64,000 nucleotides of DNA from an uncultured Bacteroidales bacterium (GTDB taxonomy: Bacteria; Bacteroidota; Bacteroidia; Bacteroidales; VadinHA17): NCBI GenBank assembly GCA_963823065.1, contig CAWGJX010000001.1:1437642-1501641 (forward strand). The letters are read 5' to 3'. A program made the position numbers and the translations under genes. The notes beneath the pieces are model-generated. The model was not told the DNA's origin. It did no database searches and saw only the letters and a list, made by a program, of their open reading frames with translations. Below, in pieces: positions 3 through 21,536 of the stretch (positions within the stretch are counted from its first letter, which is position 1; each line of letters begins with the position of its first letter).

Positions 3-1400
3 GTTCTTAACCGTAATTCTTCAAAAATTTATATTGAAGTGGCTTACGGGCTTACCCAGGAACAAAAAGTCAGAGGTGAGTATAAAATTGGAGAAGGTAT
101 AGTCGGGGAAGTTGTCAAAACAGGTGAGCCTGTGATAATCAGGCACATATCTGATGAACCGCGTTATCTGAATAAAACACGATCAACGAGTAAACCCGAT
201 GATGAAGATTCCTTTATCTGTGTACCTATTAAGGCAAAAAACCAGATAATAGGAACTCTGAGTGTAAAGCTGAAGTATTATTCAAACCGTTCCTTTCAGA
301 ATGAGCTGCAATTCCTTACAATAATGGCATCAATGTTCGCCAGGCTGGTAAGATCGAGGCAGGATAAGATTGAGGAACTTGAAAAGCTTCATTACCGTAA
401 ACTGAGGGAACAGGGTTTATACAGCTACAATGACCGTATAACATCGCTCGTAGGAGAAACAGGAAAGATGCAGGAGGTTTATGACCTGATTTCGAAAGTT
501 GCAATGACAAATGCAACCATACTCATAAGAGGTGAAAGCGGTGTTGGTAAAGAGCTGGTTGCCAGGGCTATTCATGATCAAAGCCCCCGTAATAAACAGC
601 AAATGATTAGCATCAACTGTGCGGCTATCCCTGAGAACCTGATAGAAAGTGAACTCTTCGGATATGAGAAAGGAGCTTTTACAGGAGCTGATAAATTAAA
701 TAAAGGCCGCTTCGAACTGGCTGAGAAAAGTACAATTTTCCTTGATGAAATAGGTGATCTTCCACCAAATCTGCAAGTCAAATTATTAAGAGTTTTACAG
801 GAAAAAGAATTTCAGAGACTGGGTGGACATGAGACCATCAAGGCAGATGTCAGAATCATTACTGCCACAAACAGAGATCTTGAAGAACTAATGCTAAAGA
901 ACGAGTTCCGTGAAGATTTATACTACCGGCTGAATGTTTTTCCGGTATTCATTCCACCACTGAGGGAACGAAGGGCAGACATCCCCTTGCTTGTAAATCA
1001 TTTTATCGAAAAGTATAACAACATTCATGGCCTGGAAATAAAGCGGATAAGCTCAACTGCTATTGACCTGCTTATGACTTATCACTGGCCGGGAAATATT
1101 AGGGAACTTGAGAATTGCATTGAACGGGCTGCTATTCTCAGCACCGATAAGGTCATAAGGTCGCACAACCTGCCTCCTACACTTCAGAGTGCCGCTTCAA
1201 CACATTCCCGTGTTGACGGAAGCCTCGAAGCAATTCTCGAAAATGTGGAAAAACAAATGCTTATTGATGCACTTAACATGTCTAAAGGTAATATCTCAAA
1301 AGCAGCTGACCAGTTAAAACTCACTGAGCGGATGATGGGCCTGAGAATAAAAAAATATGAGATAGATCCTGCAATATTCAAGAAGTTCAAAAGAACTTAA
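3..1400 (+). CDS. sigma-54-dependent transcriptional activator with GAF, AAA+ and Fis-type HTH domains (NifA/NtrC-like); 5' end cut by the window edge
   Basis: The reading frame is open from base 3, with no stop upstream of the GTG at 39. It has a GAF-like N-terminus (GEGIVGEVVKTGEPVII), Walker A GESGVGKE, the sigma-54 contact motif GAFTGA (EKGAFTGADK), Walker B FLDEIGD and a C-terminal HTH (NISKAADQLKLTERMMGLRIKKY). Confidence 0.9.
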   Translation, partial: VLNRNSSKIYIEVAYGLTQEQKVRGEYKIGEGIVGEVVKTGEPVIIRHISDEPRYLNKTRSTSKPDDEDSFICVPIKAKNQIIGTLSVKLKYYSNRSFQNELQFLTIMASMFARLVRSRQDKIEELEKLHYRKLREQGLYSYNDRITSLVGETGKMQEVYDLISKVAMTNATILIRGESGVGKELVARAIHDQSPRNKQQMISINCAAIPENLIESELFGYEKGAFTGADKLNKGRFELAEKSTIFLDEIGDLPPNLQVKLLRVLQEKEFQRLGGHETIKADVRIITATNRDLEELMLKNEFREDLYYRLNVFPVFIPPLRERRADIPLLVNHFIEKYNNIHGLEIKRISSTAIDLLMTYHWPGNIRELENCIERAAILSTDKVIRSHNLPPTLQSAASTHSRVDGSLEAILENVEKQMLIDALNMSKGNISKAADQLKLTERMMGLRIKKYEIDPAIFKKFKRT

Positions 1401-1460
1401 GATTCTTATCCGAACCTTATAAATCAGTTTCTTCAGGGCAATCACTCTTTGTTTAAGATA

Positions 1461-1487
1461 AATCCTACAATTATGTAGGATTTTTTA
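1461..1487 (+). terminator. Rho-independent terminator after the sigma-54 activator gene
   Basis: Perfect 9-bp stem AATCCTACA / TGTAGGATT with loop ATTA, followed by a T-run. Confidence 0.6.
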
Positions 1488-1621
1488 TTGATTCTTACGT
1501 GAATGTAGTCTTTTCCTGATCTGATATAAAACCGTAATTTATTTTTAACTTATTCATAGGCACTGTAAATCAATACTATACACGGCTATGTTTTCTATTG
1601 TTTAATTATCAGTTTGAATTA

Positions 1622-1637
1622 TGGCACACTATTGGCC
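1622..1637 (+). promoter_or_regulatory. Candidate sigma-54 (-24/-12) promoter for glnK-amt
   Basis: The sequence TGGCACactatTGGCc places GG and GC exactly as in the consensus TGGCAC-N5-TTGC. It lies about 85 nt upstream of the glnK ATG and just downstream of a sigma-54 activator gene. Confidence 0.6.
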
Positions 1638-1723
1638 TTATAGTATGACTGATATAAAATAGTACAACTATGTATTTTTTCTAATTATTAGGTGATGTAA
1701 TCAATAACTAACAATCAGAATGT

Positions 1724-2095
1724 ATGAAAAAAATTGAAGCAATTATCAGGACCTCTAAATTTGAAACTGTCAAGGCTCAGCTAAAAGAAATTGGCATTGA
1801 CTTCTTTTCCTACTGGGACGCATCGGGGGTAGGAAATGAGCATATGCGCGGACATCATAGTTACAGGGGAACAGTTTATGACACACAATACATCCCCAGG
1901 ATCTTTATCACTCTTGTGCTACGCGACATTAACGTTCAGAAAACAATTGAATGCATTGAGAAAGCAGCCTATACCGGTGAGATCGGAGACGGAATGATCT
2001 TCAGCTACGATATTGAAGAATCGGTCAGAATCAGTAATGGTGCCAGGGGAGAAGCCTCAACAGCCGGCCCTGGTGATGAGAAATTAACTAAATAA
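1724..2095 (+). CDS. glnK: P-II nitrogen regulatory protein (GlnK/GlnB family)
   Basis: The 123-aa product has the P-II start MKKIEAIIR, a T-loop-like segment SYRGTVY and GDGMIF (compare GDGKIF). It sits immediately upstream of amt. Confidence 0.85.
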   Translation: MKKIEAIIRTSKFETVKAQLKEIGIDFFSYWDASGVGNEHMRGHHSYRGTVYDTQYIPRIFITLVLRDINVQKTIECIEKAAYTGEIGDGMIFSYDIEESVRISNGARGEASTAGPGDEKLTK

Positions 2096-2117
2096 TAATT
2101 ATTTAAAACTTATAAAG

Positions 2118-3668
2118 ATGACTAAAAAACTTATTCTGTTCGTTGCTGCGTTAATCATGACCATAGGATCTGTATGTTATGCAGACGGAACACGCAAACC
2201 TGACCCCAGTGGTGTCCGTACCGGAAATGTATCGGATATTTCTGCGGCTAAGCCCGGTGAACCGGTAATAGCCGAGATATCTGATACTGTCGGCCACAAC
2301 AAAGTAGCAATCAATATGATGTGGGTATTGGTAACCGGATTTCTTGTAATGTTTATGCAGGCAGGATTTGCCATGGTTGAAACAGGTCTTACACGTGCCA
2401 AAAATGTTGCTCATACTATTTCAATGAACTTTCTTATTTACCCGCTCGGGATGCTGGGATTTTACATGACCGGCTTTGCATTGATGTTTGGGGGAGTAGG
2501 AGCTCTCGGTACGCTTGGTGGTTTTGACGGACTTAACAGTGAATTCAGCATCAGTCTGGCCGGCCATTCTTTTGGACTGTTCGGGATGAAAGGTTTTTTT
2601 CTGAACTTCAGTGTTTACGACGTTGGTGTTCTCGCAATGTTCCTTTTCCAAATGGTATTCATGGATACAACTGCAACGATCCCTACAGGTTCAATGGCTG
2701 AAAGATGGAAATTCTCCTCATTCTTTATATATGGGATATTTGTAGGTACAATTATATATCCTATTTTTGGAAACTGGGTATGGGGCGGTGGATGGCTGGC
2801 AAGCCTTGGAAAAGAGTTTGGATTAGGTCATGGGCATGTTGACTTTGCAGGTTCCTCGGTCGTTCATATGACAGGTGGAGTATTAGCTTTTGTTGGAGCC
2901 GCAATCTTAGGACCCAGAATTGGAAAATATAACAAAGACGGATCGGCGAATGCAATTCCCGGGCACAATATTCCGATGGCTGTGATAGGAACTTTCATCC
3001 TCGCATTTGGATGGTTCGGTTTTAACCCCGGTTCCACACTTGCAGGCGGCGATCTTAGGATATCAGTAGTTGCAGTAAATACCATGATTGCTTCCGGAAC
3101 GGGTGCCATGGCTTCTGTGCTCTGGATGTGGCTTTATAAAACGAAAAAACCTGACCCGACCATGATGCTTAATGGCATGCTTGCAGGACTTGTAGCAATC
3201 ACAGCCTCTTGTGCATTTGTGAGTGTGGGAGGTGCTGCGATTATCGGACTGATATCCGGTGTACTGGTTGTTGAAGCAGCTATTTTCATTGATAAAAAGC
3301 TTCGGATTGACGATCCTGTTGGTGCAATTGCCGTTCATGGTGTGAATGGCGCATGGGGATGTCTCGCTTTGGGTCTGTTTGCTGATGGCACCTATGGTGA
3401 AGGATGGAATGGTGTTGCCGGAACAGTTAAGGGCCTGTTTTATGGAGGCGGATTCAGCCAGGAATTAGCTCAGATGATTGGTGTGACGACAAATATTGTT
3501 TATGTGGCAGGTATTGGATGGATCATGTTTAAACTGATTGATAAGCTTGTTGGAAACCGTGTGAAACCTGAAGATGAACTCGTTGGACTTGATCTTCCTG
3601 AAATGGGAGTGGAAGGCTATTCAGGTATGAAGATGGATAAAAACTCAGAGACTCCCTTATCAAGATAA
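2118..3668 (+). CDS. amt: Ammonium transporter (Amt family)
   Basis: The 516-aa polytopic protein carries Amt signatures (FAMVETGLTRAKN, DFAGSSVVHMTGG, GWFGFNPGS, DDPVGAIAVHGVNGAWG). Confidence 0.95.
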   Translation: MTKKLILFVAALIMTIGSVCYADGTRKPDPSGVRTGNVSDISAAKPGEPVIAEISDTVGHNKVAINMMWVLVTGFLVMFMQAGFAMVETGLTRAKNVAHTISMNFLIYPLGMLGFYMTGFALMFGGVGALGTLGGFDGLNSEFSISLAGHSFGLFGMKGFFLNFSVYDVGVLAMFLFQMVFMDTTATIPTGSMAERWKFSSFFIYGIFVGTIIYPIFGNWVWGGGWLASLGKEFGLGHGHVDFAGSSVVHMTGGVLAFVGAAILGPRIGKYNKDGSANAIPGHNIPMAVIGTFILAFGWFGFNPGSTLAGGDLRISVVAVNTMIASGTGAMASVLWMWLYKTKKPDPTMMLNGMLAGLVAITASCAFVSVGGAAIIGLISGVLVVEAAIFIDKKLRIDDPVGAIAVHGVNGAWGCLALGLFADGTYGEGWNGVAGTVKGLFYGGGFSQELAQMIGVTTNIVYVAGIGWIMFKLIDKLVGNRVKPEDELVGLDLPEMGVEGYSGMKMDKNSETPLSR

Positions 3669-3774
3669 AGCTTGTCAGATGACTGTAAGGAGCCGGATCC
3701 CAGATTCAGGATATCCGCTCCCGACGGTCAGAGGTCATTACTTAATAAATTTTAAATTAATTAATAGGATAATC

Positions 3775-4524
3775 ATGAAAAATAAAATAATCTCACTTCT
3801 GGCAGGCTTATTAATTTTCTGTACATCAGCTTTTAGCCGGACCCCTCCAACTGCAGATTCTACAAGTGGATCGAAGGTAAATTTCAAGGTGACAACTGAC
3901 CTTGTAAGCACTTATATCTGGCGCGGTACGGTAGGAAGCTCCAATCCTAATATACAGCCGACATTTGCGATAGTTTCAGGCGGATTTGAAGCTGGGGTAT
4001 GGGGCTCAACAGATTTCAGGGGTAGCTATAAAGAACTTGATCCTTACCTGGCCTATACCATCAAAACCTTTAAAATCGGGATCACAGATTACGACTGGAT
4101 TTTCACCAACCCTTCTTATTTTGATTATAAGAACAAAACCACCGATCATATTCTCGAGGCAAACCTCTCCTTCCTTGGAACAGAGGCGATTCCATTAAGC
4201 ATTAGCGTAAACACTATGTTTTATGGTGCTGATAAAAAGTGGGATAAAAACACTGCAAGCTTCTCAACAAAGCAGAACTATTCAACTTATATTGAACTTG
4301 GATGGGCATTTAAAAGCTTCAGTGCATTGTTGGGAGTAACTCCGTCTAACGGATATTATGGAGCGGGTTATGGAAAGGTTGACGGATTTGCAGTTTGCAA
4401 TATTGGACTTTCATCGGTACGGAACATCAAAATTTCTCAGGACTTCACTTTACCGCTTAAAGGATCGATATTCGTCAATCCTCAGGCTGAAAGTATTCAT
4501 TTTGTAATAGGTATTACTTTATAA
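3775..4524 (+). CDS. Outer-membrane beta-barrel protein, TorF/Gcw_chp-like putative porin
   Basis: I placed the start at ATG 3775, which gives the signal peptide MKNKIISLLAGLLIFCTSAFS. Alternating aromatic/Gly beta-strand patterns (STYIWRGTV..., GFEAGVWGSTDF) resemble the TorF family. It is co-oriented with amt. Confidence 0.55.
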   Translation: MKNKIISLLAGLLIFCTSAFSRTPPTADSTSGSKVNFKVTTDLVSTYIWRGTVGSSNPNIQPTFAIVSGGFEAGVWGSTDFRGSYKELDPYLAYTIKTFKIGITDYDWIFTNPSYFDYKNKTTDHILEANLSFLGTEAIPLSISVNTMFYGADKKWDKNTASFSTKQNYSTYIELGWAFKSFSALLGVTPSNGYYGAGYGKVDGFAVCNIGLSSVRNIKISQDFTLPLKGSIFVNPQAESIHFVIGITL

Positions 4525-4564: not shown

Positions 4565-4591
4565 GCTGTCTCAGTTGAGGCAGCTTTTTTT
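4565..4591. terminator. Bidirectional hairpin terminator between convergent genes
   Basis: GCTGTCTC-agtt-GAGGCAGC (one G-U pair) is followed by T7 on the plus strand and preceded by an A-run. It lies between the stop at 4524 (+) and the stop at 4591 (-). Confidence 0.6.
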
Positions 4592-5289
4592 CATAGCTGA
4601 AAATACAAAAGATTGAATCTGACCGATTTAATTGCCAGTGCAGCTATATGACTATCAGAAACTTTTAATGCTATTGTTCTCCACTGTTTTGATTCCACCG
4701 GATGTTTGAGTAAAGTCATCTTTTCGTAACTTCCTGATGGATCAATATCAACACAGAATGATTTTAACGGGAAATAGATACCCATGCCCACAGCCTTTAC
4801 GAATGCCTCTTTCCTTGTCCATATATTTAAAAAAGCAGTTGTTTTATCCAATTTACTGTTGAAGTATTCTAACTCCTGCTCTGAAAAGTTTTCAAGACCA
4901 ATCTGCTCAAGATTGCCTGTTTCGCGTATTTTTTCAATGTCGATGCCAATGTCGTCTTTCTTACACAGACCTATTAACATTAAGTCGCCTGAAGACGACA
5001 TATTGAATTTAAGTTCTTTGAATTCCGGGATATTAATGAACGGCTTATTATAGCTATTGTATCCGAATCTTAGTTCATGTAGCTGGCAATCACAATATTT
5101 ACAAAGAATTAATCTTAACAGGTAATGCCTGAGAAGAAAATGTTCCCTGTCATTTGGAAATTTAAATTTAGCAGCCCTCTCATGTTCAATTGGTGATAAG
5201 TAATCACGAAGATCTTTTGGAAGTCCGTTCCGGCTATTCAAATTTACCTGCCAGACATGAACCTGGTAATCATCAATTACATTACGCAT
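4591..5289 (-). CDS. Sfp-type 4'-phosphopantetheinyl transferase
   Basis: The 232-aa product has the PPTase motifs GIDIEKI and WTRKEAFVKAVG. It lies 6 bp downstream of the NRPS gene on the same strand. Confidence 0.85.
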   Translation of the reverse strand: MRNVIDDYQVHVWQVNLNSRNGLPKDLRDYLSPIEHERAAKFKFPNDREHFLLRHYLLRLILCKYCDCQLHELRFGYNSYNKPFINIPEFKELKFNMSSSGDLMLIGLCKKDDIGIDIEKIRETGNLEQIGLENFSEQELEYFNSKLDKTTAFLNIWTRKEAFVKAVGMGIYFPLKSFCVDIDPSGSYEKMTLLKHPVESKQWRTIALKVSDSHIAALAIKSVRFNLLYFQL

Positions 5290-5295
5290 TAGTAT

Positions 5296-8200
5296 TTAAT
5301 TTTGAAGCTGGCACGGTGATCCCTGCCAATGTGTATTTTCAGGTAGAGATTCACCTTTCATAATCAGGGAAAGTCCGCGTAATAGAGAGTTGTCATGCAT
5401 TGTTGTGTCGTATAAAATTACAGATAATGAGCCAATAGTGCATGCTTTACCAATAACAACATCCGACATTTTCATTACCCGGTCCTCAAACAGATGCGTT
5501 TGAATTGTGCAACCAAAATTCAAAGCAGTTTCATTACCAATTTTAACTAAATCAAATTCTGTGATCTCAGTTGTTTCCATGAATACTCTTTTCCCGATCT
5601 TGCAGCCCATCATTCTGAAATAAATCGGAGCAAAAGGTGTCCCGAGAAGCATTGATTCAAAAAAGGGATAAACAAGATTTTCCGATATGGAGTTAATAAA
5701 CTCATTTCGCCATACAAATGTGCTCCAGAGTGGTTTTGCACCGGGATGGTATCTGCCAATTAAAATAGTTTTGAAAAACCAGCCAATAAAGAATGTGGAA
5801 AAGCTCAGGATAATAAGCACAAGTGGGGCTTCGTAAATGAACTTAAGGTAATTGCCTGATTTAAACAGGACATAAGCATAATTGTAAAATAATAACATTA
5901 AGACAGATGCAATCGCAAACGGCAATGATATCTTGAAAAATTCGATGATTCCTCTGATCAGATATAATGAAAATGTGGGTTTGAAAGTATATTTTTCAGG
6001 AAACTCGGGACTTTTCTGACGATTAGGCAGAAACATGGGAGGGGAGCCAAGCCATGAAGCATCTTCCATTTGTGCATCCTCAGCAAGAGATGGGATTATC
6101 GACAGGACGCCAATCAGGCAACCGCTTGCAACCTTGCTTCCTGAAGGGAGTACCGCACTGTTCCCAAGAAACGATCTTGTCCCCAGTTCTGTGGTACGAA
6201 TGATCATATAACCATTAATTACTACCGGAGGACCCACATTTACAGAATCGGACAGGAAGCTTTCATCGCCTATTTTTAGTAAATCGGTCGAGATGTAGTT
6301 AACTGTTGAAATTTCGGCACGTCTACCTATTTTCGCTCCCGTAAGTCTCAGCCATAGAGGAAGATATAATGTTGCATATAATGATTTTGTCAGCAGAAGA
6401 CTCAAGGTTATCAAAGAATCAACAAACCATTTTCGAATGTACAAAACACTGTTAAGTGGAATATCTCCGGGTTTAAGTTTCCCTATTACGATCCATTTCA
6501 AAGCTGCAGTACAAAGACAAAATGTTGCTATGTACATTGCCGATAACGGGATTATCATAAGCACCGTCAGCCATATACCCTTAAGACTATTTAAAAAATA
6601 GAGGGCCAATGAGTAAGGAATTAACAATATCCAGGGTAACAGAAGTACAAATAAGAGAGCAAATGAATGTACAATGATCAATCCGGTTTTCTTAAGAAGG
6701 CTTGTGGAATAAGGCGCCTTCTTTTTAGCTGCAACGAGCAAATCATAATCGTATTTATATAGTTTTGCAGGGGAGCCGCGCCATACCTGACCAGTTGGAA
6801 TTGTACAATTCTCAGGGATCATAGAGAGTTCAAGAAGTGCAGAATCATCTTCCATGCCGGAGTTTTGGTGAATAAGACTGCGGGCTCCAATAAAACAATT
6901 ATTGCCGACTGAAATCCTGCCAAGTTTTAACATCCCTTCTTCAACAATGTAACCCATTAAATTCGCTTCCTTGGAAACGCTGGAATTATTCCCGAGTGAC
7001 ACAAGGTCAAATACCCTTATTCTATCGGAACCTAAATAAACATTTTTACCTGTTTTCATTCCCATCAGCCTGTAGTAGATGGCTAAAAATGGAGTCCCCG
7101 AGAGCAAAACAACCGGAGTAATATCGACACATTTCTTTACCAGCCAAAACCTGAAATAATAAAATCCCCACAGTGGATATACGCCTTCTTTGAATTTTCC
7201 TATCACAAGCCATTTAAAAAGAATTGAAATCAGCAATAACAACGGATAGCTGACGAGAACGCTTTCGAGACACATCACTGCCAGACTGTTGTAGCTTAAT
7301 TCAGGAAAAAAATGCTTAATTATAAATGGTGATACGGCAAACAGGGTCGCTATACTATAGAAAAAGAATAACGATAAAACCTGTAATAACGCAACAGAAT
7401 AATATACAACAGGCTTGACCTTATTTTTTGCAATGTTCTCTTCTTCTGTAGGAACAGCATTTAGATTTGCTGCATCTATATGACCGGCTAATTCTCTTAT
7501 TGTCGGATAATCATAAATATCACGCACCGACAACATATTCATATGCAGGTCTTTTCGCAACTCAGAAATCATTTGTGATGCAAACAGGGAATGTCCTCCA
7601 AGGTCAAAGAAGTTGTCCTCTACACCAAACTGGTCAGATGAAAATAGCTTTTGCCATAAATGAAGTATTTTCAGTTCATTGGGGGAACAATCTGTAAGGT
7701 CAATTGGATGATGTCCCTCAATTAAAGATTGAGGGTCTTTTAGTTTAGTCCTGTCGACCTTTCCGCTTGGCAACGTTGGCAGATCGGTGACAACTTCAAA
7801 GATGTTTGGGATCATGAAAGGTGCTAACTTCGATTTTAACTGGCCTTTGACAGCTTTGGAATCGAAGGTTTCAAAGCTTGCTGGAATGATATAAGCGACA
7901 AGTAACTGAATCCCGTTAAAACCATTTTTTACAGTTACTGCGGCACTCTGAACTCCTTTGCAAAGCATTAGTTGTGATTCGATTTCAGTTAACTCGATCC
8001 GGAATCCCCTCAGTTTGATTTGTGAGTCAATGCGGCCCAGAAATTCAATTTCTCCTGATTCACTAAACCGGCAACGATCACCTGTCCTATATAAACGGTG
8101 CGGAAAATCAGGATTGGTTTTGAATTCAGGAATAATAAAATGTTTGTTGGTTAATTCCGGCTGATCTATGTAGCCATCAGATAGTCCAAGACCTCCGATG

Positions 8201-9327
8201 AACAATTCGCCAGCCATGCATACTGGTACCTTCTGTAAATCCTGATCAAGAATATAGGCTGAATAGTTAGGTATAGGCTTTCCGATGTTAACATTTTTTC
8301 CCTGGGTGCATTCGCTGTAAGTTGCAATAACCGTTGTTTCCGTAGGTCCGTAAGTATTAACCATTCGTCTGCCCGGGATTGCCCATCGTTTTGCGAGTTC
8401 GGTGGTGCAAACCTCTCCTCCAAGAATCAGAAGACGGAGAAGTGGCATCTCTTCATTAAGCATCGATAAAAGAGTAGGAACCGTTGAAAAAACAGTAATT
8501 CTGTTTTCACTGAGGATTTTTGAGAGGTTCGGACCACTTTGCATCATACTTTCGGTGCCGACAAAAAGAGTTGCACCTGAATAAAATGCCAGCCAAATTT
8601 CTTCAACAGATGCATCGAATGCAATTGAGAAGCCCTGAAATACTTTATCATCCTGTGTTACACCAAATATTTTTCCTTCGGACCTTACAAGATTGCAAAC
8701 AGCCCGATGGGAAATTCTGACGCCTTTCGGAGTTCCGGTTGTTCCGGAAGTGTATATGGCGTAAGCAGTATCACCTGAATCTGGCTCGATCTGATATTCT
8801 GCACTCTTTAACGAAGCAAGAAGATCGATTTTACCCTGATCCTTATCTAACTGAATTTTTAAACAGGTCAGATCTCCGATCGTCTCTAAAATAGCCGAGG
8901 TTGAAATTATTGCTTTTGCCCTGCAGTTCGAAAGTATAAAAAGTACTCTTTCTGCAGGATATTTCGTGTCAATTGGTATATATGCCGCTCCGGCTTTCAA
9001 TATTCCGAGCATAGCAATGTACATGTCAGGAGTGCGGGGCAAACAAATTCCGGCAAAATCATTTGCTCCGACACCCTGGGACTTTAAATAACCGGCAAGG
9101 TTGTTTGCCCTGTTGTTTAAATCTGCGTAGGTTATTTTTTCATCATAATACTGAACTGCTATGCGTTCGGGATATTTTTTTACAGTGTTTTCGAATATTT
9201 GATGCAAATAGCCACCGGCAGCTAATAAGTGATCATAATCTCCGTCATAACAAAAAGATAAATCGTTCTTGTTTTTTTTTGAAGAGAATTCAACAGATTG
9301 ATAATTTTCGGCGATATTATTTTTCAT
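5296..9327 (-). CDS. Pls/PosA-architecture single-module NRPS: A domain, PCP, then six TM segments interleaved with three hexapeptide-repeat soluble domains; predicted homopoly(amino acid) synthetase
   Basis: 1343 aa. Adenylation core motifs are present (YTSGTTGTPKG, FDASV, NTYGPTE, GELFIGG, YRTGD, GRIDSQIKLRGFRIE, LPSGKVDR), as is the PCP motif FFDLGGHS. The C-terminal about 700 aa has three repeats of [two hydrophobic helices + G.KIGK/GKNV...IG.. left-handed-helix-like domain ending W.GSP]. I recognise no condensation or thioesterase domain. Confidence 0.85.
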   Translation of the reverse strand: MKNNIAENYQSVEFSSKKNKNDLSFCYDGDYDHLLAAGGYLHQIFENTVKKYPERIAVQYYDEKITYADLNNRANNLAGYLKSQGVGANDFAGICLPRTPDMYIAMLGILKAGAAYIPIDTKYPAERVLFILSNCRAKAIISTSAILETIGDLTCLKIQLDKDQGKIDLLASLKSAEYQIEPDSGDTAYAIYTSGTTGTPKGVRISHRAVCNLVRSEGKIFGVTQDDKVFQGFSIAFDASVEEIWLAFYSGATLFVGTESMMQSGPNLSKILSENRITVFSTVPTLLSMLNEEMPLLRLLILGGEVCTTELAKRWAIPGRRMVNTYGPTETTVIATYSECTQGKNVNIGKPIPNYSAYILDQDLQKVPVCMAGELFIGGLGLSDGYIDQPELTNKHFIIPEFKTNPDFPHRLYRTGDRCRFSESGEIEFLGRIDSQIKLRGFRIELTEIESQLMLCKGVQSAAVTVKNGFNGIQLLVAYIIPASFETFDSKAVKGQLKSKLAPFMIPNIFEVVTDLPTLPSGKVDRTKLKDPQSLIEGHHPIDLTDCSPNELKILHLWQKLFSSDQFGVEDNFFDLGGHSLFASQMISELRKDLHMNMLSVRDIYDYPTIRELAGHIDAANLNAVPTEEENIAKNKVKPVVYYSVALLQVLSLFFFYSIATLFAVSPFIIKHFFPELSYNSLAVMCLESVLVSYPLLLLISILFKWLVIGKFKEGVYPLWGFYYFRFWLVKKCVDITPVVLLSGTPFLAIYYRLMGMKTGKNVYLGSDRIRVFDLVSLGNNSSVSKEANLMGYIVEEGMLKLGRISVGNNCFIGARSLIHQNSGMEDDSALLELSMIPENCTIPTGQVWRGSPAKLYKYDYDLLVAAKKKAPYSTSLLKKTGLIIVHSFALLFVLLLPWILLIPYSLALYFLNSLKGIWLTVLMIIPLSAMYIATFCLCTAALKWIVIGKLKPGDIPLNSVLYIRKWFVDSLITLSLLLTKSLYATLYLPLWLRLTGAKIGRRAEISTVNYISTDLLKIGDESFLSDSVNVGPPVVINGYMIIRTTELGTRSFLGNSAVLPSGSKVASGCLIGVLSIIPSLAEDAQMEDASWLGSPPMFLPNRQKSPEFPEKYTFKPTFSLYLIRGIIEFFKISLPFAIASVLMLLFYNYAYVLFKSGNYLKFIYEAPLVLIILSFSTFFIGWFFKTILIGRYHPGAKPLWSTFVWRNEFINSISENLVYPFFESMLLGTPFAPIYFRMMGCKIGKRVFMETTEITEFDLVKIGNETALNFGCTIQTHLFEDRVMKMSDVVIGKACTIGSLSVILYDTTMHDNSLLRGLSLIMKGESLPENTHWQGSPCQLQN
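5299..7422 (-). other. Membrane-embedded polymerisation region: TM1-TM2-C1-TM3-TM4-C2-TM5-TM6-C3
   Basis: Three soluble hexapeptide-like domains lie at about nt 6757-7095, 6034-6375 and 5308-5655. Each is preceded by a pair of long hydrophobic segments. This is the same order described for epsilon-poly-L-lysine synthetase. Confidence 0.65.
7474..7686 (-). other. Peptidyl carrier (thiolation) domain; the phosphopantetheine Ser codon is at 7588..7590
   Basis: GVEDNFFDLGGHSLFASQMISEL. The Ser of GGHS is residue 580. Confidence 0.8.
7738..9210 (-). other. Adenylation domain of the NRPS (about aa 40-530)
   Basis: Motifs A3 to A10 are listed above. The hand-extracted specificity residues are D-A-E-S-I-G-T-V(-I-K). 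Confidence 0.75.
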
Positions 9328-9540: not shown

Positions 9541-9548
9541 TATTTTTG
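9541..9548 (+). promoter_or_regulatory. Candidate Bacteroidota -7 box (TAnnTTTG) for glnA
   Basis: TATTTTTG lies 25 nt upstream of ATG 9573. This argues against the TTG 9546 start in the ORF track. Confidence 0.35.
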
Positions 9549-9572
9549 ACCTCTCATTTAAACTTTCAACAG

Positions 9573-11081
9573 ATGGCGAAAAACAATGATATTCTCATGA
9601 ACCAGAATGAACTGGTACAGTTTCTTAAGAAACCCGCAAAGGATTTTACACACGATGATATAATAAAGTTTATCGAAGCTAAGGGTATAACGATGCTGAA
9701 TTTCAGATATGTGGCAGATGACGGGAAACTTAAATCCCTCAATTTTGTACCTTTTAACAGGGATCATCTTGAATCAATCCTTATTGCCGGAGAAAGAGTT
9801 GATGGATCCAGCTTATTTTCATGCATAGAATCAGGATCAAGCGATTTATATATAATTCCCAGATACAGAACTGCTTTCGTCAATCCTTTTACAGAAATAC
9901 CCACACTCGAAATACTTTGTTCGTTCTATAATAATGAAGGAAAGCCATTTGAGAGTGCTCCTGAGCAAATTCTCAGAAAAGCGTATACCAGGTTTAAGAA
10001 AAATACGGGTTACATAATGAAAGTATTTGGCGAGCTGGAATATTATATTAAATCGTTCCACGACGACCTGTATCCTCTTGTTGATCAGAAAGGATACCAC
10101 CAGGCGAGACCTTTTGCCAAATTTGAAGAATTGAGGATTGAAGCTCTCGAACTCTGTGCAAAGGCTGGATGCAGGATCAAATATGGTCATTCCGAAGTGG
10201 GAAGTTTTTCAAAAGATGGTGAAGATTTTGAACAGCATGAGATAGAATTTATGCCCGTGGAAATTGATGAAGCAGTCGATCAGCTTCTGATTGCAAAATG
10301 GATAATACGGATTCTTGGTTATGAATATGGTGTTGAGGTCAGTTTTGCACCAAAGATAACTGTAGGCAAAGCCGGATCGGGTATGCATATTCATATGATG
10401 CTTGAAAAGAATGGTGTGAATATGATGGTTGAGAATGGAAAACTGAGTAATGCTGCAAAAAGAATGATTGCAGGAATACTTGAACTTTCTAAATCTCTCA
10501 CCGCGTTTGGCAATACTATTCCGACCTCATATCTGCGTCTTGTGCCTCATCAGGAAGCGCCAACAAATATTTGCTGGGGAGACAGAAACCGGTCTGTTCT
10601 GATGCGTGTTCCCCTTGGATGGAATGGTGCAACTGATATGATCAGAGATGCAAATCCTGCCGACATCACTGACTTCGCCGGTCTGCCGTCGAAGCAAACA
10701 GTTGAATTAAGATCACCTGATGGTTCCGCTGATATATATAAACTTTTTGCAGGTCTGGTAGTGGCTACTGAACATGGTCTTGAGATGAAAAATGCTCTGT
10801 CAAAGGCCCAGAACCTTTATGTTGATTACAATATCTTTCATGATAAGAACAGTGGCAAAAAGAAAAATCTGGAATCTTTGCCATCATCTTGCTGGGAATC
10901 AGCCGAATGCCTTCTGGCACAACGAGGTTTTTACGAAAAAGACGAAATATTTCCCGCCTATGTTATTGATAATGTAGTATCTAAGCTCCAGTCATTTGAT
11001 GACAAGGGACTCAGCGAAAAACTTTATAATAAAAATGAGGAAATAAGTAAGCTTGTCAGGAAGTACCTTCATTGCGGTTAA
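9573..11081 (+). CDS. glnA: Glutamine synthetase family protein (about 500-aa form)
   Basis: It has the beta-grasp motif VDGSS, the ATP-site motif KAGSGMHIHMML, plus RVPLG and ELRSPDGSADIY. I chose ATG 9573 as the start. Confidence 0.8.
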   Translation: MAKNNDILMNQNELVQFLKKPAKDFTHDDIIKFIEAKGITMLNFRYVADDGKLKSLNFVPFNRDHLESILIAGERVDGSSLFSCIESGSSDLYIIPRYRTAFVNPFTEIPTLEILCSFYNNEGKPFESAPEQILRKAYTRFKKNTGYIMKVFGELEYYIKSFHDDLYPLVDQKGYHQARPFAKFEELRIEALELCAKAGCRIKYGHSEVGSFSKDGEDFEQHEIEFMPVEIDEAVDQLLIAKWIIRILGYEYGVEVSFAPKITVGKAGSGMHIHMMLEKNGVNMMVENGKLSNAAKRMIAGILELSKSLTAFGNTIPTSYLRLVPHQEAPTNICWGDRNRSVLMRVPLGWNGATDMIRDANPADITDFAGLPSKQTVELRSPDGSADIYKLFAGLVVATEHGLEMKNALSKAQNLYVDYNIFHDKNSGKKKNLESLPSSCWESAECLLAQRGFYEKDEIFPAYVIDNVVSKLQSFDDKGLSEKLYNKNEEISKLVRKYLHCG

Positions 11082-17819: not shown

Positions 17820-20800
17820 ATGATGACTGGCAATTTTTTGCAACATTGCAAGAGACTTATTATCATTTTGCTGTTACTTTTTTTTAGCAGTAGCTTGTCA
17901 TTTTCCCAAACTATACTTTCAGGTAATCTTAACCAGCCAAGTTCACATGTAAGCGCGATAGGTACCGGTACTGTTACAGTAGATGATGTGTCAGGATTTG
18001 CCGCAAACGATTTTGTCCTCCTGATTCAGATGCAAGGGGTTGAAATATATACGAATTTAGCCAATTATGGTGTTTTGGTTAGGAAGAAAGGGGAACCCGG
18101 TCTGCATGAATTTATGAAGGTTCTGGCAGTAGATACAGATCTAAAAACGATAACATTTTGGAGTGACTTCAAGAACACTTACAATATCCTTGGAAATTTG
18201 CAGGTAGTAAGAGTACCTTATTACAACAGTGCCACAGTTACAGGAACTCTTACTTCCAATCCATGGAATCCGGTTTCAAAATCAGGAGGTGTGCTCTCAA
18301 TGATTGTTGGACGCTCCATAAAGCTCCTGGCAAATATAGATATGTCAGGGAAAGGTTTTTCAGGTGGAAGCAATTCAACAGGAACCGGAATCTGCCAATC
18401 AACAGATCCCGTTGCCTATAAAAAGGATTTCTATGATATGAGCGATGCAAATTCGGGTTACAAAGGAGAGGGAGCTTCAAATTATGCGTTATCCATAGTT
18501 TCATTAGATGATCCTGTTTCTCCTGGTTATATGAAAGGACAGGGACCAAGTTTCAACGGCGGCGGAGGAGGCAATGGAAGGTATTCCGGAGGAGGAGGTG
18601 GAGCTAATATAGGTATTGGGGGAAAGGGGGGCAAAGAAGATCTGTCATGTTCTTCTCAAGGATTTGGAGGCTCGGGCGGGCAAACTATTGATCCCTTAAG
18701 CTTGCCAAACACGATTTTTCCGGGAGGGGGTGGCGGTTCATCTACCTCTGCTCTTGCTGGTGGCTCAGGCTCAGGGGGAAACGGAGGCGGAATAGTAATT
18801 ATTGTAACTGACACAATAATCGGCAAAGGCGGAAATATTATATCAAATGGAAGCAATGGGGGCAATGCTACAGGATTAGCTGGAGCAGGTGGCGGCGGGG
18901 GAGGTGGAACTATCGCTTTATCTACGAACAGTTATGGTCCCGTTTCCGATCCAATAAAATTTTACGTAAAAGGAGGTAACGGAGGAAACAGTGATGCAGC
19001 AACCGGAGGTGAAGGTGGTGGAGGCGGCGGTGGCCTTGTATGGGTAAGCACAGCTTTTACCTCAAATGCTGTAGCTGTTTCTACCGAAGGTTTAAGAGGT
19101 ACCCCTGGGTCACCGCTTAATAATCCGGCTTTCCCGGGCAATAATAAACCCGGGTTCATAGCGGTTCTAAATGGATTTTTGTATAATTCGATATGGTCTT
19201 CAGTGACAGGTGAATCTATTGATTCAATATGCTCTAACATTACAGCACCAAAATTAACCGGAACAAATCCGTTTGGAGGGACACCTGATTATACCATTAA
19301 ATGGCAGCATAGCACAACCTCTGAGTCTACTGGGTTTACCGATATTTTGGGTGAAACTTCTCTTGATTATAATCCCGGGTTATTAGTACAAACCACATGG
19401 TTCAAAAGAATTGTTACTGACAATAGCACCACACCAATAGTTGATCAGAGTAAACCTGTCAAAATTATTGTGCATACTAAAATTTCAGGTAATCTTTTTG
19501 GTTCAGACCCAAACCAGATAATCTGCTGGAATCAGAATCCGGCTATTTTGATTCCTGATTTGGGCCTTTTGAATGGTAGTTATATGTCAGATGGCATCAC
19601 CCATTACTACTTATATAAATGGCATCAGAATACTACTGATGCTGGTTGGGATTCTTCACCTGTTGCAGATGGAAATGCTACACAGCCAACTTATGATCCT
19701 CCGGCTCTTACAAGTCCAACATTTTATAAACGTGTTGTCACGTCTGGCAGATGTATCGATTACGGTCCTACTGTTAAAATTACAGTTCTTGATACTATAG
19801 AAAATAACAAAATACTCAATTCACCACCCGATATCTGCTTTGGATCAACTTTTGATGATCTGACAGCAACAACTGCACCGGCTCTTGCAGGAGGTGATAA
19901 CATCTATCTTTTCAGATGGGAACAAAAAATAAATGATGCCATAGACTGGACTTTAGCAACCGGGGTAAACGATGGGCCAGATTATACCCCAACAATGTTA
20001 CCTCAACGGATTCCATCTAACCAATATATTTTCAGACGTATCGTTTATTCGGGTTCTAACAACGTCTGTCAATCTGTAAGTAATTCAGTGCTTCTGAAAG
20101 ATTTTCCTGTTATCACTAACAACACCATTTCACCTGTTCCGGCTATCTGTTCCGGTTCTAAACCGGCAGATATAATCGGATCCCCCGGTCTTTCAGGAGG
20201 AGATACAAATTATACATATAGCTGGGAAGATAGCACGAAATTTCATCAATGGACACCTATTCCGGGTGTATCATCTGCTGAATTTCCCGGTATAAATCTG
20301 ACAGATACAACAAGTTACAGACGCATTGTATATGCTGTTTGTTCAAACAAGAGTAAGTCGATACAAGTGATTGTTCATGAGCCAATTCTGAATAATATCA
20401 TTGCGCTGCCTACCGGTGGGGTAACACAAACTATTTGCAATAACCAGGTGCCGATCTCATTTCTGGGAACCCCCGCGACAGGCGGAACAAATATACCCGG
20501 AGATTATGCGTATATGTGGAAATATTCAACTGATAATTCAGTGTTTACTTCTATCCCATCGGGAGGTACCGGGATAAATTATTCTCCTCCCGCACTTACA
20601 TCAACAACATACTATAAACGGGAAGTTACTTCCGGGAAATGCACTGTCATCAGTGATCCGTTAACAGTTACTGTTCTTCCCGATATAACAAACAATACAA
20701 TATCGGGCATTCCGATGGTTTGCTATAGCCTGATTCCCGGCAGCATAACAGGTGCCACATTGTCCGGAGGTTCAGGAGTATATAAGTATTTATGGGAACA

Positions 20801-21536
20801 GAGCACTGACAGGGGCGTTAACTGGTCACCTGCTGCATCGACAAATAATTCATCTGATTATCAACCTCCTGCCTTGACAATTGCGACTACATACAGGAGA
20901 AATGTGTCATCCGGTTTGAGTGACTGTTGTAAGAGTGTTTCGAATAATTTTGATATTGGCATAAACCCTTTACCCGTGAGCCCTATAAATGCGGGTCGCG
21001 ATACTACTATCTATTCTGTAGAGAAATTGTATCACATGAAAGCAATTGATCCTGCACTTTCAGGTACCGGAGAAACAGGAACCTGGGCGCTGATTGATGG
21101 CAATACCAGCACAGTTGACGACACAAGTAAATTTAACACTGTTGTCAGGAATCTTTCAGTAGGGCCAAATTCTTTTTTATGGACAGTACACCGTGGTCCA
21201 TGTAAACTTCAGGATTCTGTAGATATTTACCTCAATCAAGATTTCATTCCCCAGGGTTTCTCTCCCAATGGTGATAAAAAGAATGATACATTTGTTATCG
21301 AGGGTTTAAGTCCCGATGATCAGCATGTTGATGTAAGATTTGTCAATGGAGCAGGCTCTGAAGTATATTCCTTCAGCGGCGAAGGGGAAAACCTCAGAGA
21401 ATGGAAAGGATGGGACGGTAAGAATTCTGCCGGCCTTGATCTGCCTGAGGGGACATATTATTATATGCTTAAAATAACCGGAAAATCGGGTCAGGTATTC
21501 AAGAGAAGCGGATTTGTTGTTCTTAAAAGATATTGA
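17820..21536 (+). CDS. T9SS cargo adhesin with a type-B (gliding-motility-associated) C-terminal domain
   Basis: 1238 aa with a signal peptide and a Gly-rich region (GGGGGNG..., GGGGGGG). Six Cys-bracketed modules of about 85-95 aa lie at about nt 19227-20850. The C-terminus is FSPNGDKKNDTFVIEGL...GTYYYMLKI...GFVVLKRY. Confidence 0.85.
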   Translation: MMTGNFLQHCKRLIIILLLLFFSSSLSFSQTILSGNLNQPSSHVSAIGTGTVTVDDVSGFAANDFVLLIQMQGVEIYTNLANYGVLVRKKGEPGLHEFMKVLAVDTDLKTITFWSDFKNTYNILGNLQVVRVPYYNSATVTGTLTSNPWNPVSKSGGVLSMIVGRSIKLLANIDMSGKGFSGGSNSTGTGICQSTDPVAYKKDFYDMSDANSGYKGEGASNYALSIVSLDDPVSPGYMKGQGPSFNGGGGGNGRYSGGGGGANIGIGGKGGKEDLSCSSQGFGGSGGQTIDPLSLPNTIFPGGGGGSSTSALAGGSGSGGNGGGIVIIVTDTIIGKGGNIISNGSNGGNATGLAGAGGGGGGGTIALSTNSYGPVSDPIKFYVKGGNGGNSDAATGGEGGGGGGGLVWVSTAFTSNAVAVSTEGLRGTPGSPLNNPAFPGNNKPGFIAVLNGFLYNSIWSSVTGESIDSICSNITAPKLTGTNPFGGTPDYTIKWQHSTTSESTGFTDILGETSLDYNPGLLVQTTWFKRIVTDNSTTPIVDQSKPVKIIVHTKISGNLFGSDPNQIICWNQNPAILIPDLGLLNGSYMSDGITHYYLYKWHQNTTDAGWDSSPVADGNATQPTYDPPALTSPTFYKRVVTSGRCIDYGPTVKITVLDTIENNKILNSPPDICFGSTFDDLTATTAPALAGGDNIYLFRWEQKINDAIDWTLATGVNDGPDYTPTMLPQRIPSNQYIFRRIVYSGSNNVCQSVSNSVLLKDFPVITNNTISPVPAICSGSKPADIIGSPGLSGGDTNYTYSWEDSTKFHQWTPIPGVSSAEFPGINLTDTTSYRRIVYAVCSNKSKSIQVIVHEPILNNIIALPTGGVTQTICNNQVPISFLGTPATGGTNIPGDYAYMWKYSTDNSVFTSIPSGGTGINYSPPALTSTTYYKREVTSGKCTVISDPLTVTVLPDITNNTISGIPMVCYSLIPGSITGATLSGGSGVYKYLWEQSTDRGVNWSPAASTNNSSDYQPPALTIATTYRRNVSSGLSDCCKSVSNNFDIGINPLPVSPINAGRDTTIYSVEKLYHMKAIDPALSGTGETGTWALIDGNTSTVDDTSKFNTVVRNLSVGPNSFLWTVHRGPCKLQDSVDIYLNQDFIPQGFSPNGDKKNDTFVIEGLSPDDQHVDVRFVNGAGSEVYSFSGEGENLREWKGWDGKNSAGLDLPEGTYYYMLKITGKSGQVFKRSGFVVLKRY

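What the first reader, a model, noticed from the sequence alone, without database searches (positions are those of the whole stretch)
5296..9327. Pls/PosA-architecture NRPS: predicted membrane-bound cationic homopoly(amino acid) synthetase with a Lys-like specificity code
**Seen in sequence.**
- One 1343-aa ORF has a complete adenylation domain and a PCP (GGHS, Ser580). There is no condensation, epimerisation or thioesterase domain.
- The C-terminal about 700 aa consists of three repeats of two long hydrophobic helices followed by a soluble domain of about 110 aa with hexapeptide/left-handed-helix character. Each soluble domain starts G(M/A/C)K(T/I)GK.. and ends W(R/L/Q)GSP.

**Established knowledge.**
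- This A-T-(TM2-C)x3 layout is the published architecture of epsilon-poly-L-lysine synthetase Pls from Streptomyces albulus. Relatives make other cationic homopolymers such as delta-poly-ornithine, poly-Dap and poly-beta-lysine.

**Hand alignment to GrsA.**
- Aligning FDASVEEIW / ITVFSTVPT / LILGGEV / NTYGPTETTVI to GrsA by eye gives the specificity residues D-A-E-S-I-G-T-V. This differs at one position from the Lys code DAESIGSV as I recall it from the published specificity-code tables.

**Inference.**
- This AT-rich, T9SS-bearing (Bacteroidota-like) organism may make a lysine-based, or other basic amino acid, isopeptide polymer. I am not aware of a characterised product for this enzyme family in that phylum.
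Basis: partly seen in the sequence, partly recalled or inferred. Interest (0 to 1): 0.85.

Follow-up and report, generated by a model that had tools for sequence, protein, structure and literature searches.

The report
Polylysine-type polymer synthetase in Bacteroidales
This gene encodes an ordinary, intact member of the known Pls/PosA family of membrane-bound enzymes that string basic amino acids into antimicrobial polymers. Its substrate pocket almost exactly matches the lysine pocket of the classic polylysine synthetase, so it is a sound but unsurprising prediction, and the product is untested.

Summary
Window 5296-9327 (minus strand) is one 1343-aa ORF with these parts:
[quoted passage not shown] - a 700-aa C-terminal domain that scores 625 bits on NCBIfam TIGR02353, "Pls/PosA family NRPS" (cutoff 423)

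The C-terminal domain has six hydrophobic helices in three pairs. Each pair is followed by a left-handed beta-helix repeat. The repeats are 28-30% identical to each other, and the AlphaFold2 model has pLDDT 91.

The computed specificity code is DAESIGTVIK. It matches S. albulus epsilon-poly-L-lysine synthetase (DAESIGTVVK) at 9 of 10 positions, including Ala at the position proposed to set chain length. It is conserved in 96 of the 119 full-length sequences compared (the query and 118 homologues).

The protein aligns end to end with the characterised poly-ornithine synthetase PosA at 33% identity. An Sfp-type PPTase gene follows 6 bp downstream, here and in all ten Bacteroidales or Bacteroidota relatives examined. 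The neighbouring nitrogen-metabolism genes are kept only in the closest relatives.

The closest relatives are uncultured Bacteroidales MAGs, and public records already name them "Pls/PosA family". I found no characterised product from Bacteroidota in the paper library.

Verdict: a new member of a known kind, most likely a lysine isopeptide polymer synthetase. Interest is modest.

The parts
5296..9327 (-). Whole ORF, 1343 aa: Pls/PosA-family NRPS-like cationic homopoly(amino acid) synthetase
   Evidence: ORF list and translation. TIGR02353 at 625 bits against a 423 cutoff, and TIGR01733 at 425 bits. 33% identity, collinear over aa 29-1339, with A. baumannii PosA.
7738..9195 (-). Adenylation domain (aa 45-530) with all core motifs
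   Evidence: Pfam AMP-binding 5.8e-82 and AMP-binding_C. Motif positions. PDB matches to NRPS A domains, including Pls 7WEW and PosA 8G95.
8326..8616 (-). Substrate-pocket region (aa 238-334) holding nine of the ten specificity-code residues: D238 A239 E242 S281 I301 G303 T325 V333 I334. The tenth, K523, lies at 7759-7761.
   Evidence: HMMER alignments to 7WEW, 8G95 and TycA. Positions. Code conserved in homologues. Reference codes in PMC10522769 Supp. Table 2.
7477..7665 (-). Carrier (thiolation) domain, aa 555-617. The phosphopantetheine-attachment Ser580 in LGGHS is encoded at 7588-7590.
   Evidence: Pfam PP-binding 2.4e-10. GGHS at 577-580. Ser present in all 119 aligned sequences.
6712..7422 (-). 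Repeat 1 (aa 636-872): helices TM1 (about 645-663) and TM2 (about 691-709), KWLVIG motif, left-handed beta-helix, ends WRGSP
   Evidence: Hydropathy, repeat alignment, AF2 model.
5974..6711 (-). Repeat 2 (aa 873-1118): TM3 (about 883-901) and TM4 (about 920-945), KWIVIG motif, beta-helix, ends WLGSP
5299..5973 (-). Repeat 3 (aa 1119-1343): TM5 (about 1127-1150) and TM6 (about 1167-1190), KTILIG motif, beta-helix, ends WQGSP. This is the most conserved repeat.
   Evidence: It has 42 near-invariant positions, against 21 and 30 in repeats 1 and 2.
5479..5508 (-). Motif T-x-Q-T-H-L-F-E-D-R (aa 1274-1283, TIQTHLFEDR here), nine of its ten positions invariant. It occurs in repeat 3 only and is a candidate catalytic site (inference).
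   Evidence: Invariant in 45- and 119-sequence alignments. Present in PosA as QTHLFEDR. Absent at the equivalent place in repeats 1 and 2.
4591..5289 (-). Sfp/HetI-type 4'-phosphopantetheinyl transferase, 232 aa, 6 bp downstream of the synthetase. It probably forms an operon with it and primes Ser580.
   Evidence: Pfam ACPS and AASDHPPT_N. NCBIfam match to HetI at 118.5 bits, below its 370-bit cutoff. Found directly downstream in relatives L001-L011 and L015.

Best explanation
The gene encodes a membrane-bound, single-module NRPS-like polymerase of the Pls/PosA family (cationic homopoly(amino acid) synthetases). Steps 1, 2 and 5 are shown at the sequence level. Steps 3 and 4 are inferred from characterised homologues.

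1. The co-transcribed Sfp-type PPTase converts Ser580 of the carrier domain to the holo form.
2. The adenylation domain activates a diamino acid as the aminoacyl-AMP and loads it as a thioester. The substrate is most probably L-lysine, because the pocket DAESIGTVIK is nearly that of S. albulus Pls.
3. The C-terminal domain is a single-chain pseudo-trimer of left-handed beta-helix acyltransferase-like repeats. It is held on the cytoplasmic face by three helical hairpins.
4. That domain transfers the thioester-bound residue to the side-chain amine of a free monomer or growing chain. Repeated transfer builds an isopeptide-linked polymer, expected to be epsilon-poly-L-lysine, with no template and no condensation or thioesterase domain.
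5. The motif QTHLFEDR, invariant and found only in repeat 3, is the best candidate for the catalytic His and acid.

By analogy with epsilon-PL and delta-poly-ornithine, the likely role of the product is as an antimicrobial or competition polymer.
For: - **Family:** TIGR02353 scores 625 bits against a 423 cutoff over aa 648-1338.
- **Domains:** A and T domains are present, and no C, E or TE domain is found.
- **Characterised homologue:** the protein is 33% identical and collinear with PosA over aa 29-1339. PosA makes delta-poly-L-ornithine in vitro (PMC10522769).
- **Pocket:** the code DAESIGTVIK comes from alignments to 7WEW and 8G95. Pls is DAESIGTVVK with Lys confirmed experimentally. The exact code DAESIGTVIK is listed as predicted Lys.
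- **Key positions:** Asp1 and Glu3 are conserved in all such synthetases (CHPAs). Position 2 is proposed to set chain length: Ala for Lys, Met for Orn, Phe for Dap or Dab.
- **Pocket match is not just kinship:** the pocket region is about equally distant from Pls (47% identity) and PosA (50%) overall, yet the pocket residues follow Pls.
- **Conservation:** the code is conserved down to 44% identity. It is DAESIGTVIK in 96 of the 119 full-length sequences compared and DAESIGTVVK in 10.
- **Topology:** there are six helices in three pairs. The flanks on the beta-helix side carry 3-5 K+R, and the hairpin loops carry 1-2.
- **Structure:** the AF2 model has pLDDT 91 and pTM 0.90, with three units of helix pair plus beta-helix. 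The only similar solved folds are hexapeptide acyltransferases and gamma-carbonic anhydrases. This matches the published PosA model.
- **PPTase:** it lies immediately downstream in all ten relatives at 64-84% identity that were examined.
Against: - No biochemical data exist for this protein or for any Bacteroidota homologue.
- Code-based prediction has failed in this family before. The closest Stachelhaus match for PosA was a Lys domain, yet PosA prefers Orn about 160-fold.
- Position 9 is Ile here and Val in Pls. No enzyme with exactly DAESIGTVIK has been characterised.
- No epsilon-PL-degrading peptidase (pldII) or exporter is adjacent, unlike the Streptomyces and Corynebacterium loci.
- How a polycation would cross the outer membrane of a diderm is unknown.
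- I could not obtain full-length S. albulus Pls, so similarity of the C-terminal domain to Pls itself was not measured.
Confidence: 0.7

Rival explanations
1. The enzyme belongs to the same class and uses the same mechanism, but makes a different product. It could be a polymer of another basic monomer (ornithine, beta-lysine, D-lysine, Dab, an arginine-like substrate), or a short oligomer or a differently linked chain rather than epsilon-poly-L-lysine.
For: - PosA was mispredicted as Lys by nearest-code matching and is really Orn-specific.
- A Bdellovibrionales homologue activates Arg, and several pockets remain uncharacterised.
- Position 9 differs from Pls.
- Overall the pocket region is no closer to Pls than to PosA.
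Against: - Nine of ten code residues equal those of Pls, including Ala at the chain-length position. Orn enzymes have Met there, Dap and Dab enzymes have Phe, and beta-Lys enzymes have Gly with a different second half of the code.
- No lysine 2,3-aminomutase, Dab or Dap biosynthesis gene or racemase lies next to the gene.
- Such neighbour genes mark the beta-Lys and Dab loci.
Confidence: 0.2
2. The C-terminal acyltransferase-like domain does not polymerise. Instead it transfers the carrier-bound lysine to another acceptor, such as a membrane lipid or an envelope polymer, and so modifies surface charge.
For: - The C-terminal repeats resemble hexapeptide acyltransferases that act on varied acceptors.
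- No polymer has been shown for any Bacteroidota member.
- No exporter or degrading peptidase is linked to the gene.
Against: - The whole 700-aa domain matches TIGR02353 end to end.
- It aligns collinearly with PosA.
- All seven characterised members of the family named in the literature make homopolymers.
Confidence: 0.05
3. The polymer serves as a nitrogen reserve or is under nitrogen control, in the way cyanophycin is. The basis is that the cassette sits between glutamine synthetase and a sigma-54 activator, P-II and ammonium-transporter block.
For: - Neighbours in the window are GS at 9546-11081, then on the other side Amt at 2118-3668, P-II at 1724-2095 and a sigma-54 activator at 39-1400.
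- The GS side is kept in L005, L009 and L010. The Amt, P-II and activator side is kept in L009.
Against: - The neighbourhood is lost in every relative at 76% identity or below, while the synthetase-PPTase pair persists.
- No sigma-54 promoter match lies in the synthetase-GS intergenic region, and window-wide matches equal the chance expectation.
- No degrading peptidase is linked to the gene.
Confidence: 0.05

Closest known systems
Epsilon-poly-L-lysine synthetase Pls, Streptomyces albulus (BAG68864; A-domain structure PDB 7WEW)
   Same: - The architecture is the same: A, T, then six TM helices with three tandem C1-C3 repeats, and no C or TE domain.
- The specificity code matches at 9 of 10 positions (DAESIGTVIK against DAESIGTVVK). 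This includes Asp1, Ala2 and Glu3.
   Different: - Identity is only about 47% in the pocket region.
- Position 9 is Ile rather than Val.
- The host is a Gram-negative Bacteroidales, not an actinomycete.
- A dedicated PPTase is linked here, and no pldII peptidase is adjacent.
- The full-length comparison could not be done.
Delta-poly-L-ornithine synthetase PosA, Acinetobacter baumannii (ATY43264; PDB 8G95-8G98)
   Same: - The two proteins align over their full length at 33% identity, including all three TM and beta-helix repeats and the QTHLFEDR motif.
- Both hosts are diderms.
- Both loci are essentially a single synthetase gene.
- The predicted pseudo-threefold fold of the C-terminal domain is the same.
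   Different: - The PosA code is DMEHNGTVSK. Met at position 2 and His and Asn at positions 4 and 5 differ, so the expected substrate differs.
- PosA has no adjacent PPTase reported.
Predicted Lys-type homologues in other phyla (for example Acidobacteria bacterium PYV28785.1, code DAESIGTVIK) and Orn-type homologues in Bacteroidota (Chitinophaga vietnamensis, Pedobacter caeni) listed by Patel & Gulick 2023
   Same: - The code is identical to the Acidobacteria entry.
- The phylum is the same as the Chitinophaga and Pedobacter entries.
   Different: - All of these are predictions only.
- The Bacteroidota entries in that table carry the Orn code DMEHNGSV(S/T)K, not a Lys code.
- Lys-type codes in Bacteroidota, including Pedobacter, are seen here.
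Trimeric hexapeptide-repeat (left-handed beta-helix) acyltransferases, such as maltose or galactoside O-acetyltransferase and serine acetyltransferase
   Same: Each C-terminal repeat has this fold, and three copies are expected to pack like a trimer.
   Different: - Here the three copies are fused in one chain, have diverged, and are anchored by TM hairpins.
- The acyl donor is a carrier-domain thioester rather than acyl-CoA.
- Foldseek similarity is weak: E about 1e-3, and each hit covers one repeat only.

Membership tests
Pls/PosA family (cationic homopoly(amino acid) synthetases, NCBIfam TIGR02353) | C-terminal domain of about 700 aa matching TIGR02353 above the curated cutoff | tested here: met
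   625.1 bits against a cutoff of 423.1. Protein aa 648-1338 match profile positions 2-694 of 695.
Pls/PosA family | N-terminal NRPS adenylation domain followed by a carrier domain with the phosphopantetheine serine | tested here: met
   AMP-binding 5.8e-82, TIGR01733 at 425 bits, PP-binding 2.4e-10, and LGGHS with Ser580.
Pls/PosA family | No canonical condensation or thioesterase domain | tested here: met
   Neither family appears in the Pfam scan at E<=0.01.
Pls/PosA family | Six transmembrane helices arranged as three pairs that separate three tandem soluble repeats (C1-C3) | tested here: met
   Kyte-Doolittle segments. Repeats 28-30% identical with E down to 3e-32. AF2 helices in three pairs at pLDDT 91. 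No dedicated TM predictor was available.
Pls/PosA family | Asp at code position 1 and Glu at position 3, which bind the alpha-amine and the side-chain amine of a diamino acid | tested here: met
   D238 and E242. The rule is stated in PMC10522769.
Pls/PosA family | Template-independent synthesis of an isopeptide-linked homopolymer | not testable with these tools
   This needs an enzyme assay and mass spectrometry.
Epsilon-poly-L-lysine synthetase (Pls sensu stricto) | Lys-type pocket DAESIGTVVK with Ala at position 2 | tested here: met
   The code is DAESIGTVIK, 9 of 10 identical, with Ala at position 2. The only difference is the conservative change Val to Ile at position 9.
Epsilon-poly-L-lysine synthetase (Pls sensu stricto) | Preferential adenylation of L-lysine and an epsilon-linked product | not testable with these tools
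   This needs ATP-PPi exchange and linkage analysis.
Epsilon-poly-L-lysine synthetase (Pls sensu stricto) | Adjacent epsilon-PL-degrading peptidase pldII. This is typical of actinobacterial loci and is not strictly defining. | tested here: not met
   The neighbours are a PPTase, a putative outer-membrane protein, Amt, P-II and GS. No peptidase is among them. The pldII context is described in PMC8117764.

The most novel reading that the evidence does not exclude
Uncultured wetland and soil Bacteroidales make a cationic isopeptide polymer. It would be either epsilon-polylysine or, if the Ile9 pocket behaves differently, a not-yet-described polymer. Its production would be tied to nitrogen status, because in this lineage the cassette is wedged between glutamine synthetase and the P-II, AmtB and sigma-54-activator block. 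The polymer would then serve as a nitrogen sink or reserve rather than only as an antibiotic.
Probability: 0.05. Interest if true: 0.7.

Novelty: new member of a known kind. Interest (0 to 1): 0.3.

Why it matters
If confirmed by experiment, this would be the first characterised cationic homopoly(amino acid) from Bacteroidota. It would also show that epsilon-polylysine-type chemistry exists in uncultured Bacteroidales, whose closest relatives come from fen metagenomes and Microflora Danica (MFD) MAGs. Known producers named in the papers I read are actinomycetes, coryneforms and an Epichloe fungus.

The compact two-gene cassette of synthetase plus its own PPTase is a convenient unit for heterologous expression.

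The QTHLFEDR motif, invariant and confined to repeat 3, gives a concrete mutagenesis target in a polymerisation domain that has no solved structure in my PDB searches.

None of this changes how the family is understood. It extends a known family to another lineage.

Tried and rejected
1. **Full-length S. albulus Pls.** I queried the big protein database with the 138-aa Pls fragment seen in the 7WEW alignment. Only short fragments of 101-241 aa came back, so I made no full-length or C-domain comparison with Pls and built no C1-C3 phylogeny.
2. **Solved structure of the C-terminal domain.** The sequence search and Foldseek on the AF2 model found only single hexapeptide-repeat proteins. No structure of the Pls-type polymerisation domain turned up.
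3. **RNA elements.** I looked for a riboswitch or other RNA element, for example a lysine riboswitch. There were no Rfam hits and no tRNAs anywhere in the window.
4. **Nitrogen-regulon link.** The GS, Amt, P-II and sigma-54-activator neighbours are conserved only in relatives at 81% identity or above. No sigma-54 promoter lies in the synthetase-GS spacer, and window-wide matches equal the chance expectation. I treated this as lineage synteny.
5. **Extra conserved cluster genes.** I looked for an exporter, peptidase or aminomutase. None is shared. An RND pump lies upstream in L001 only.
6. **Horizontal-transfer signal.** Gene GC is 0.397, PPTase GC is 0.359 and window GC is 0.389, so there is no anomaly.
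7. **Literature.** Searches for a characterised Bacteroidota product and for structural or mutational work on the C-terminal domain found nothing beyond Patel & Gulick 2023 and reviews. The library lacks most subscription-journal papers, for example the 2013 Kito et al. mutational study of the three tandem Pls domains that the 2021 review cites.

Full report
**The observation.** Window 5296-9327 holds a single 1343-aa ORF on the minus strand. Pfam finds an AMP-binding domain at aa 45-386 (E 5.8e-82), AMP-binding_C at 448-523, a PP-binding domain at 555-617 and weak hexapeptide-repeat signals. No condensation, epimerisation or thioesterase family appears. The adenylation core motifs and the carrier-domain LGGHS motif (Ser580) are intact.

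A Kyte-Doolittle scan finds six strongly hydrophobic segments in three pairs: about 645-663/691-709, 883-901/920-945 and 1127-1150/1167-1190. The C-terminal 700 aa fall into three repeats (636-872, 873-1118, 1119-1343). These are 28-30% identical pairwise, with BLASTP E-values from 5e-16 to 3e-32.
- The finding did not state the strand; the ORF is on the minus strand.
- The second motif ends in R, not K.
- The soluble stretch per repeat is about 165-180 aa, of which the beta-helix is roughly 110.

**Family assignment.** NCBIfam TIGR02353 ("Pls/PosA family non-ribosomal peptide synthetase", an equivalog-domain model) matches aa 648-1338 end to end at 625 bits, against a curated cutoff of 423. 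A BLASTP against the PosA sequence printed in Supplementary Table 3 of Patel & Gulick 2023 gives one collinear alignment over aa 29-1339 at 33% identity and 685 bits. That copy was machine-read from a PDF and lacks 16 of the 1332 residues. PosA is experimentally shown to make delta-poly-L-ornithine (PMC10522769).

AlphaFold2 on aa 621-1343, with a 45-sequence alignment, gives a confident model (pLDDT 91, pTM 0.90). It shows three units, each made of two long helices, short helices and beta-helix strands. Foldseek and sequence searches against the PDB find only hexapeptide-repeat acyltransferases and gamma-carbonic anhydrases, and each hit covers one repeat. [quoted passage not shown]

The flanks of each helix pair that face the beta-helices carry 3-5 Lys+Arg. 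The short hairpin loops carry 1-2. By the positive-inside rule this puts the catalytic repeats in the cytoplasm, on the same side as the A and T domains.

**Substrate prediction.** HMMER alignments of the pocket region to Pls (7WEW), PosA (8G95) and TycA place the ten specificity positions at D238, A239, E242, S281, I301, G303, T325, V333, I334 and K523. The code is therefore DAESIGTVIK. Supplementary Table 2 of PMC10522769 gives these reference codes:

| Enzyme | Code | Substrate |
|---|---|---|
| S. albulus Pls | DAESIGTVVK | Lys, experimental |
| Acidobacteria homologue (PYV28785.1) | DAESIGTVIK | Lys, predicted |
| PosA | DMEHNGTVSK | Orn, experimental |
| Dap synthetase | DFEYVGTVTK | Dap, experimental |
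| Dab synthetase | DFECLSAVTK | Dab, experimental |
| beta-Lys synthetase | DGESVSVVNK | beta-Lys, experimental |

The same paper shows that Asp1 and Glu3 bind the two amines. It proposes that position 2 sets chain length: Ala for Lys, Met for Orn, Phe for Dap and Dab. The present protein has Asp, Ala and Glu at these positions.

Over the 137-aa pocket region the protein is about as far from Pls (47% identity) as from PosA (50%). The pocket match to Pls is therefore not just a by-product of close kinship. Among the 119 full-length sequences compared (the query and 118 homologues down to 44% identity), 96 have DAESIGTVIK, 10 have DAESIGTVVK and 9 have DAESIGSVIK. It is in fact identical to real Pls in the eight positions given.

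One caution applies. Nearest-code matching pointed to Lys for PosA, which actually prefers Orn about 160-fold. No enzyme with Ile at position 9 has been assayed.

**Genomic context and taxon.** A 232-aa Sfp/HetI-type phosphopantetheinyl transferase starts 6 bp after the synthetase stop codon. The closest species-level genomes are uncultured Bacteroidales MAGs from fens and from the Microflora Danica (MFD) set, at 65-84% identity. The database also holds a 95%-identical metagenome protein and MAG proteins that NCBI already names [quoted passage not shown]. The window also encodes two proteins with T9SS C-terminal sorting domains.

tblastn of the window's neighbouring genes against the relatives' loci shows that the PPTase directly follows the synthetase in all of L001-L011. 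Precomputed gene calls show the same for L015, at 64% identity. A 46%-identical Pedobacter locus lacks the PPTase.

The striking nitrogen-metabolism neighbours are these:
- glutamine synthetase at 9546-11081
- ammonium transporter at 2118-3668
- P-II at 1724-2095
- a sigma-54 activator at 39-1400

They are retained only in the three closest relatives, and completely only in L009. No sigma-54 promoter lies in the synthetase-GS spacer. I therefore treat the two-gene cassette as the functional unit and the nitrogen genes as lineage-specific synteny. There is no adjacent peptidase like pldII of the actinobacterial loci, no exporter, and no precursor-supply gene. No Rfam element or tRNA occurs in the window. 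Gene GC (0.397) equals window GC (0.389).

**Mechanism.** Four things are shown at the sequence level:
- an intact A-T di-domain with a Lys-type pocket
- a dedicated PPTase
- a full Pls-type polymerisation domain
- a predicted topology with all catalytic parts in the cytoplasm

The chemistry is inferred from characterised homologues. The A domain loads lysine on the holo-carrier. The C-terminal pseudo-trimer then transfers the lysyl thioester to the epsilon-amine of an incoming or growing chain, over and over, giving an isopeptide polymer that leaves through or along the helical hairpins.

Repeat 3 is the most conserved, with 42 near-invariant positions against 21 and 30 in repeats 1 and 2. 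It alone carries the invariant motif QTHLFEDR at aa 1276-1283, which PosA shares. Hexapeptide acyltransferases use a catalytic histidine at subunit interfaces (established knowledge). This motif is therefore my best candidate for the single active site, but that is inference only.

**Comparison with what is known, and novelty.** The protein passes every computationally testable membership criterion of the Pls/PosA family. It also meets the pocket criterion for the lysine subgroup at 9 of 10 positions. The family is large: the C-terminal domain finds 692 clusters at 50% identity with E<=1e-30, and 4174 with E<=1e-3.

A published survey already reports homologues across bacteria, archaea, fungi and some eukaryotes. 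Its table includes Chitinophaga (labelled Bacteroidetes) and Pedobacter caeni (labelled Acidobacteria there), both with Orn-type codes. I found no paper that characterises a product from Bacteroidota. The 2021 epsilon-PL review names only actinomycete, coryneform and fungal producers or Pls homologues in the passages read.

This is therefore a new, uncharacterised member of a known kind. It would be flagged routinely by NCBI's annotation pipeline and, from my own knowledge, by antiSMASH's NAPAA rule. The interest score of 0.85 is not, and I rate it 0.3.

**Limits.** I could not retrieve full-length S. albulus Pls, so no C1-C3 phylogeny was built. No dedicated TM predictor or NRPS specificity predictor was available. 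The model coordinates could not be inspected to test whether the repeat-3 motif faces the carrier domain.

Noticed in passing
window 39-4524 and 9546-11081: A nitrogen-assimilation block surrounds the cassette. It comprises a GAF/sigma-54 activator (39-1400), P-II (1724-2095), an ammonium transporter (2118-3668) and, on the other side, glutamine synthetase (9546-11081). A weak sigma-54-like site (TGGCACACTATTGGCC, 2 mismatches) lies at 1622-1637, just upstream of P-II. The synteny is kept only in the closest relatives.
   Followed up: partly
window 3679-4524 (+): This 281-aa ORF has no Pfam family. An internal Met at codon 33 is followed by a signal-peptide-like stretch (MKNKIISLLAGLLIFCTSAFS), so the real start is probably later. 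Its sequence looks like an outer-membrane beta-barrel downstream of amt. It found no match in any of the fetched relatives' loci, including L009, which keeps the rest of this neighbourhood.
   Followed up: partly
homologues P0021-P0070: Most other Bacteroidota homologues, for example Pedobacter at 1480-1550 aa, carry an extra N-terminal extension of about 130-170 aa before the adenylation domain. The Bacteroidales clade and this protein lack it. Its nature was not examined.
   Followed up: no
representative proteins P0243, P0246, P0269, P0280, P0281 and others: Many family representatives are only about 660-760 aa and consist of the C-terminal polymerisation domain alone. They may be gene fragments or genuinely split systems with separate A-T proteins.
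   Followed up: no
window 17820-21536 and 54504-58508: Two very large proteins look like T9SS cargo. One is 1238 aa with only a CHU_C sorting domain recognised. The other is 1334 aa with a Pel9A-like right-handed beta-helix, Ig domains and a Por_Secre_tail.
   Followed up: no
window 60881-62764 (-): This 627-aa ORF has no Pfam family at E<=1e-5.
   Followed up: no
L001 3708-9676: In one relative at 76% identity, an RND efflux system (OEP, MFP and ACR_tran genes) lies divergently upstream of the synthetase. It could be an exporter or self-resistance system, but it was not among the genes called in the other three loci whose gene tables were read (L002, L014, L015), and no RND gene lies next to the synthetase in the window.
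   Followed up: partly
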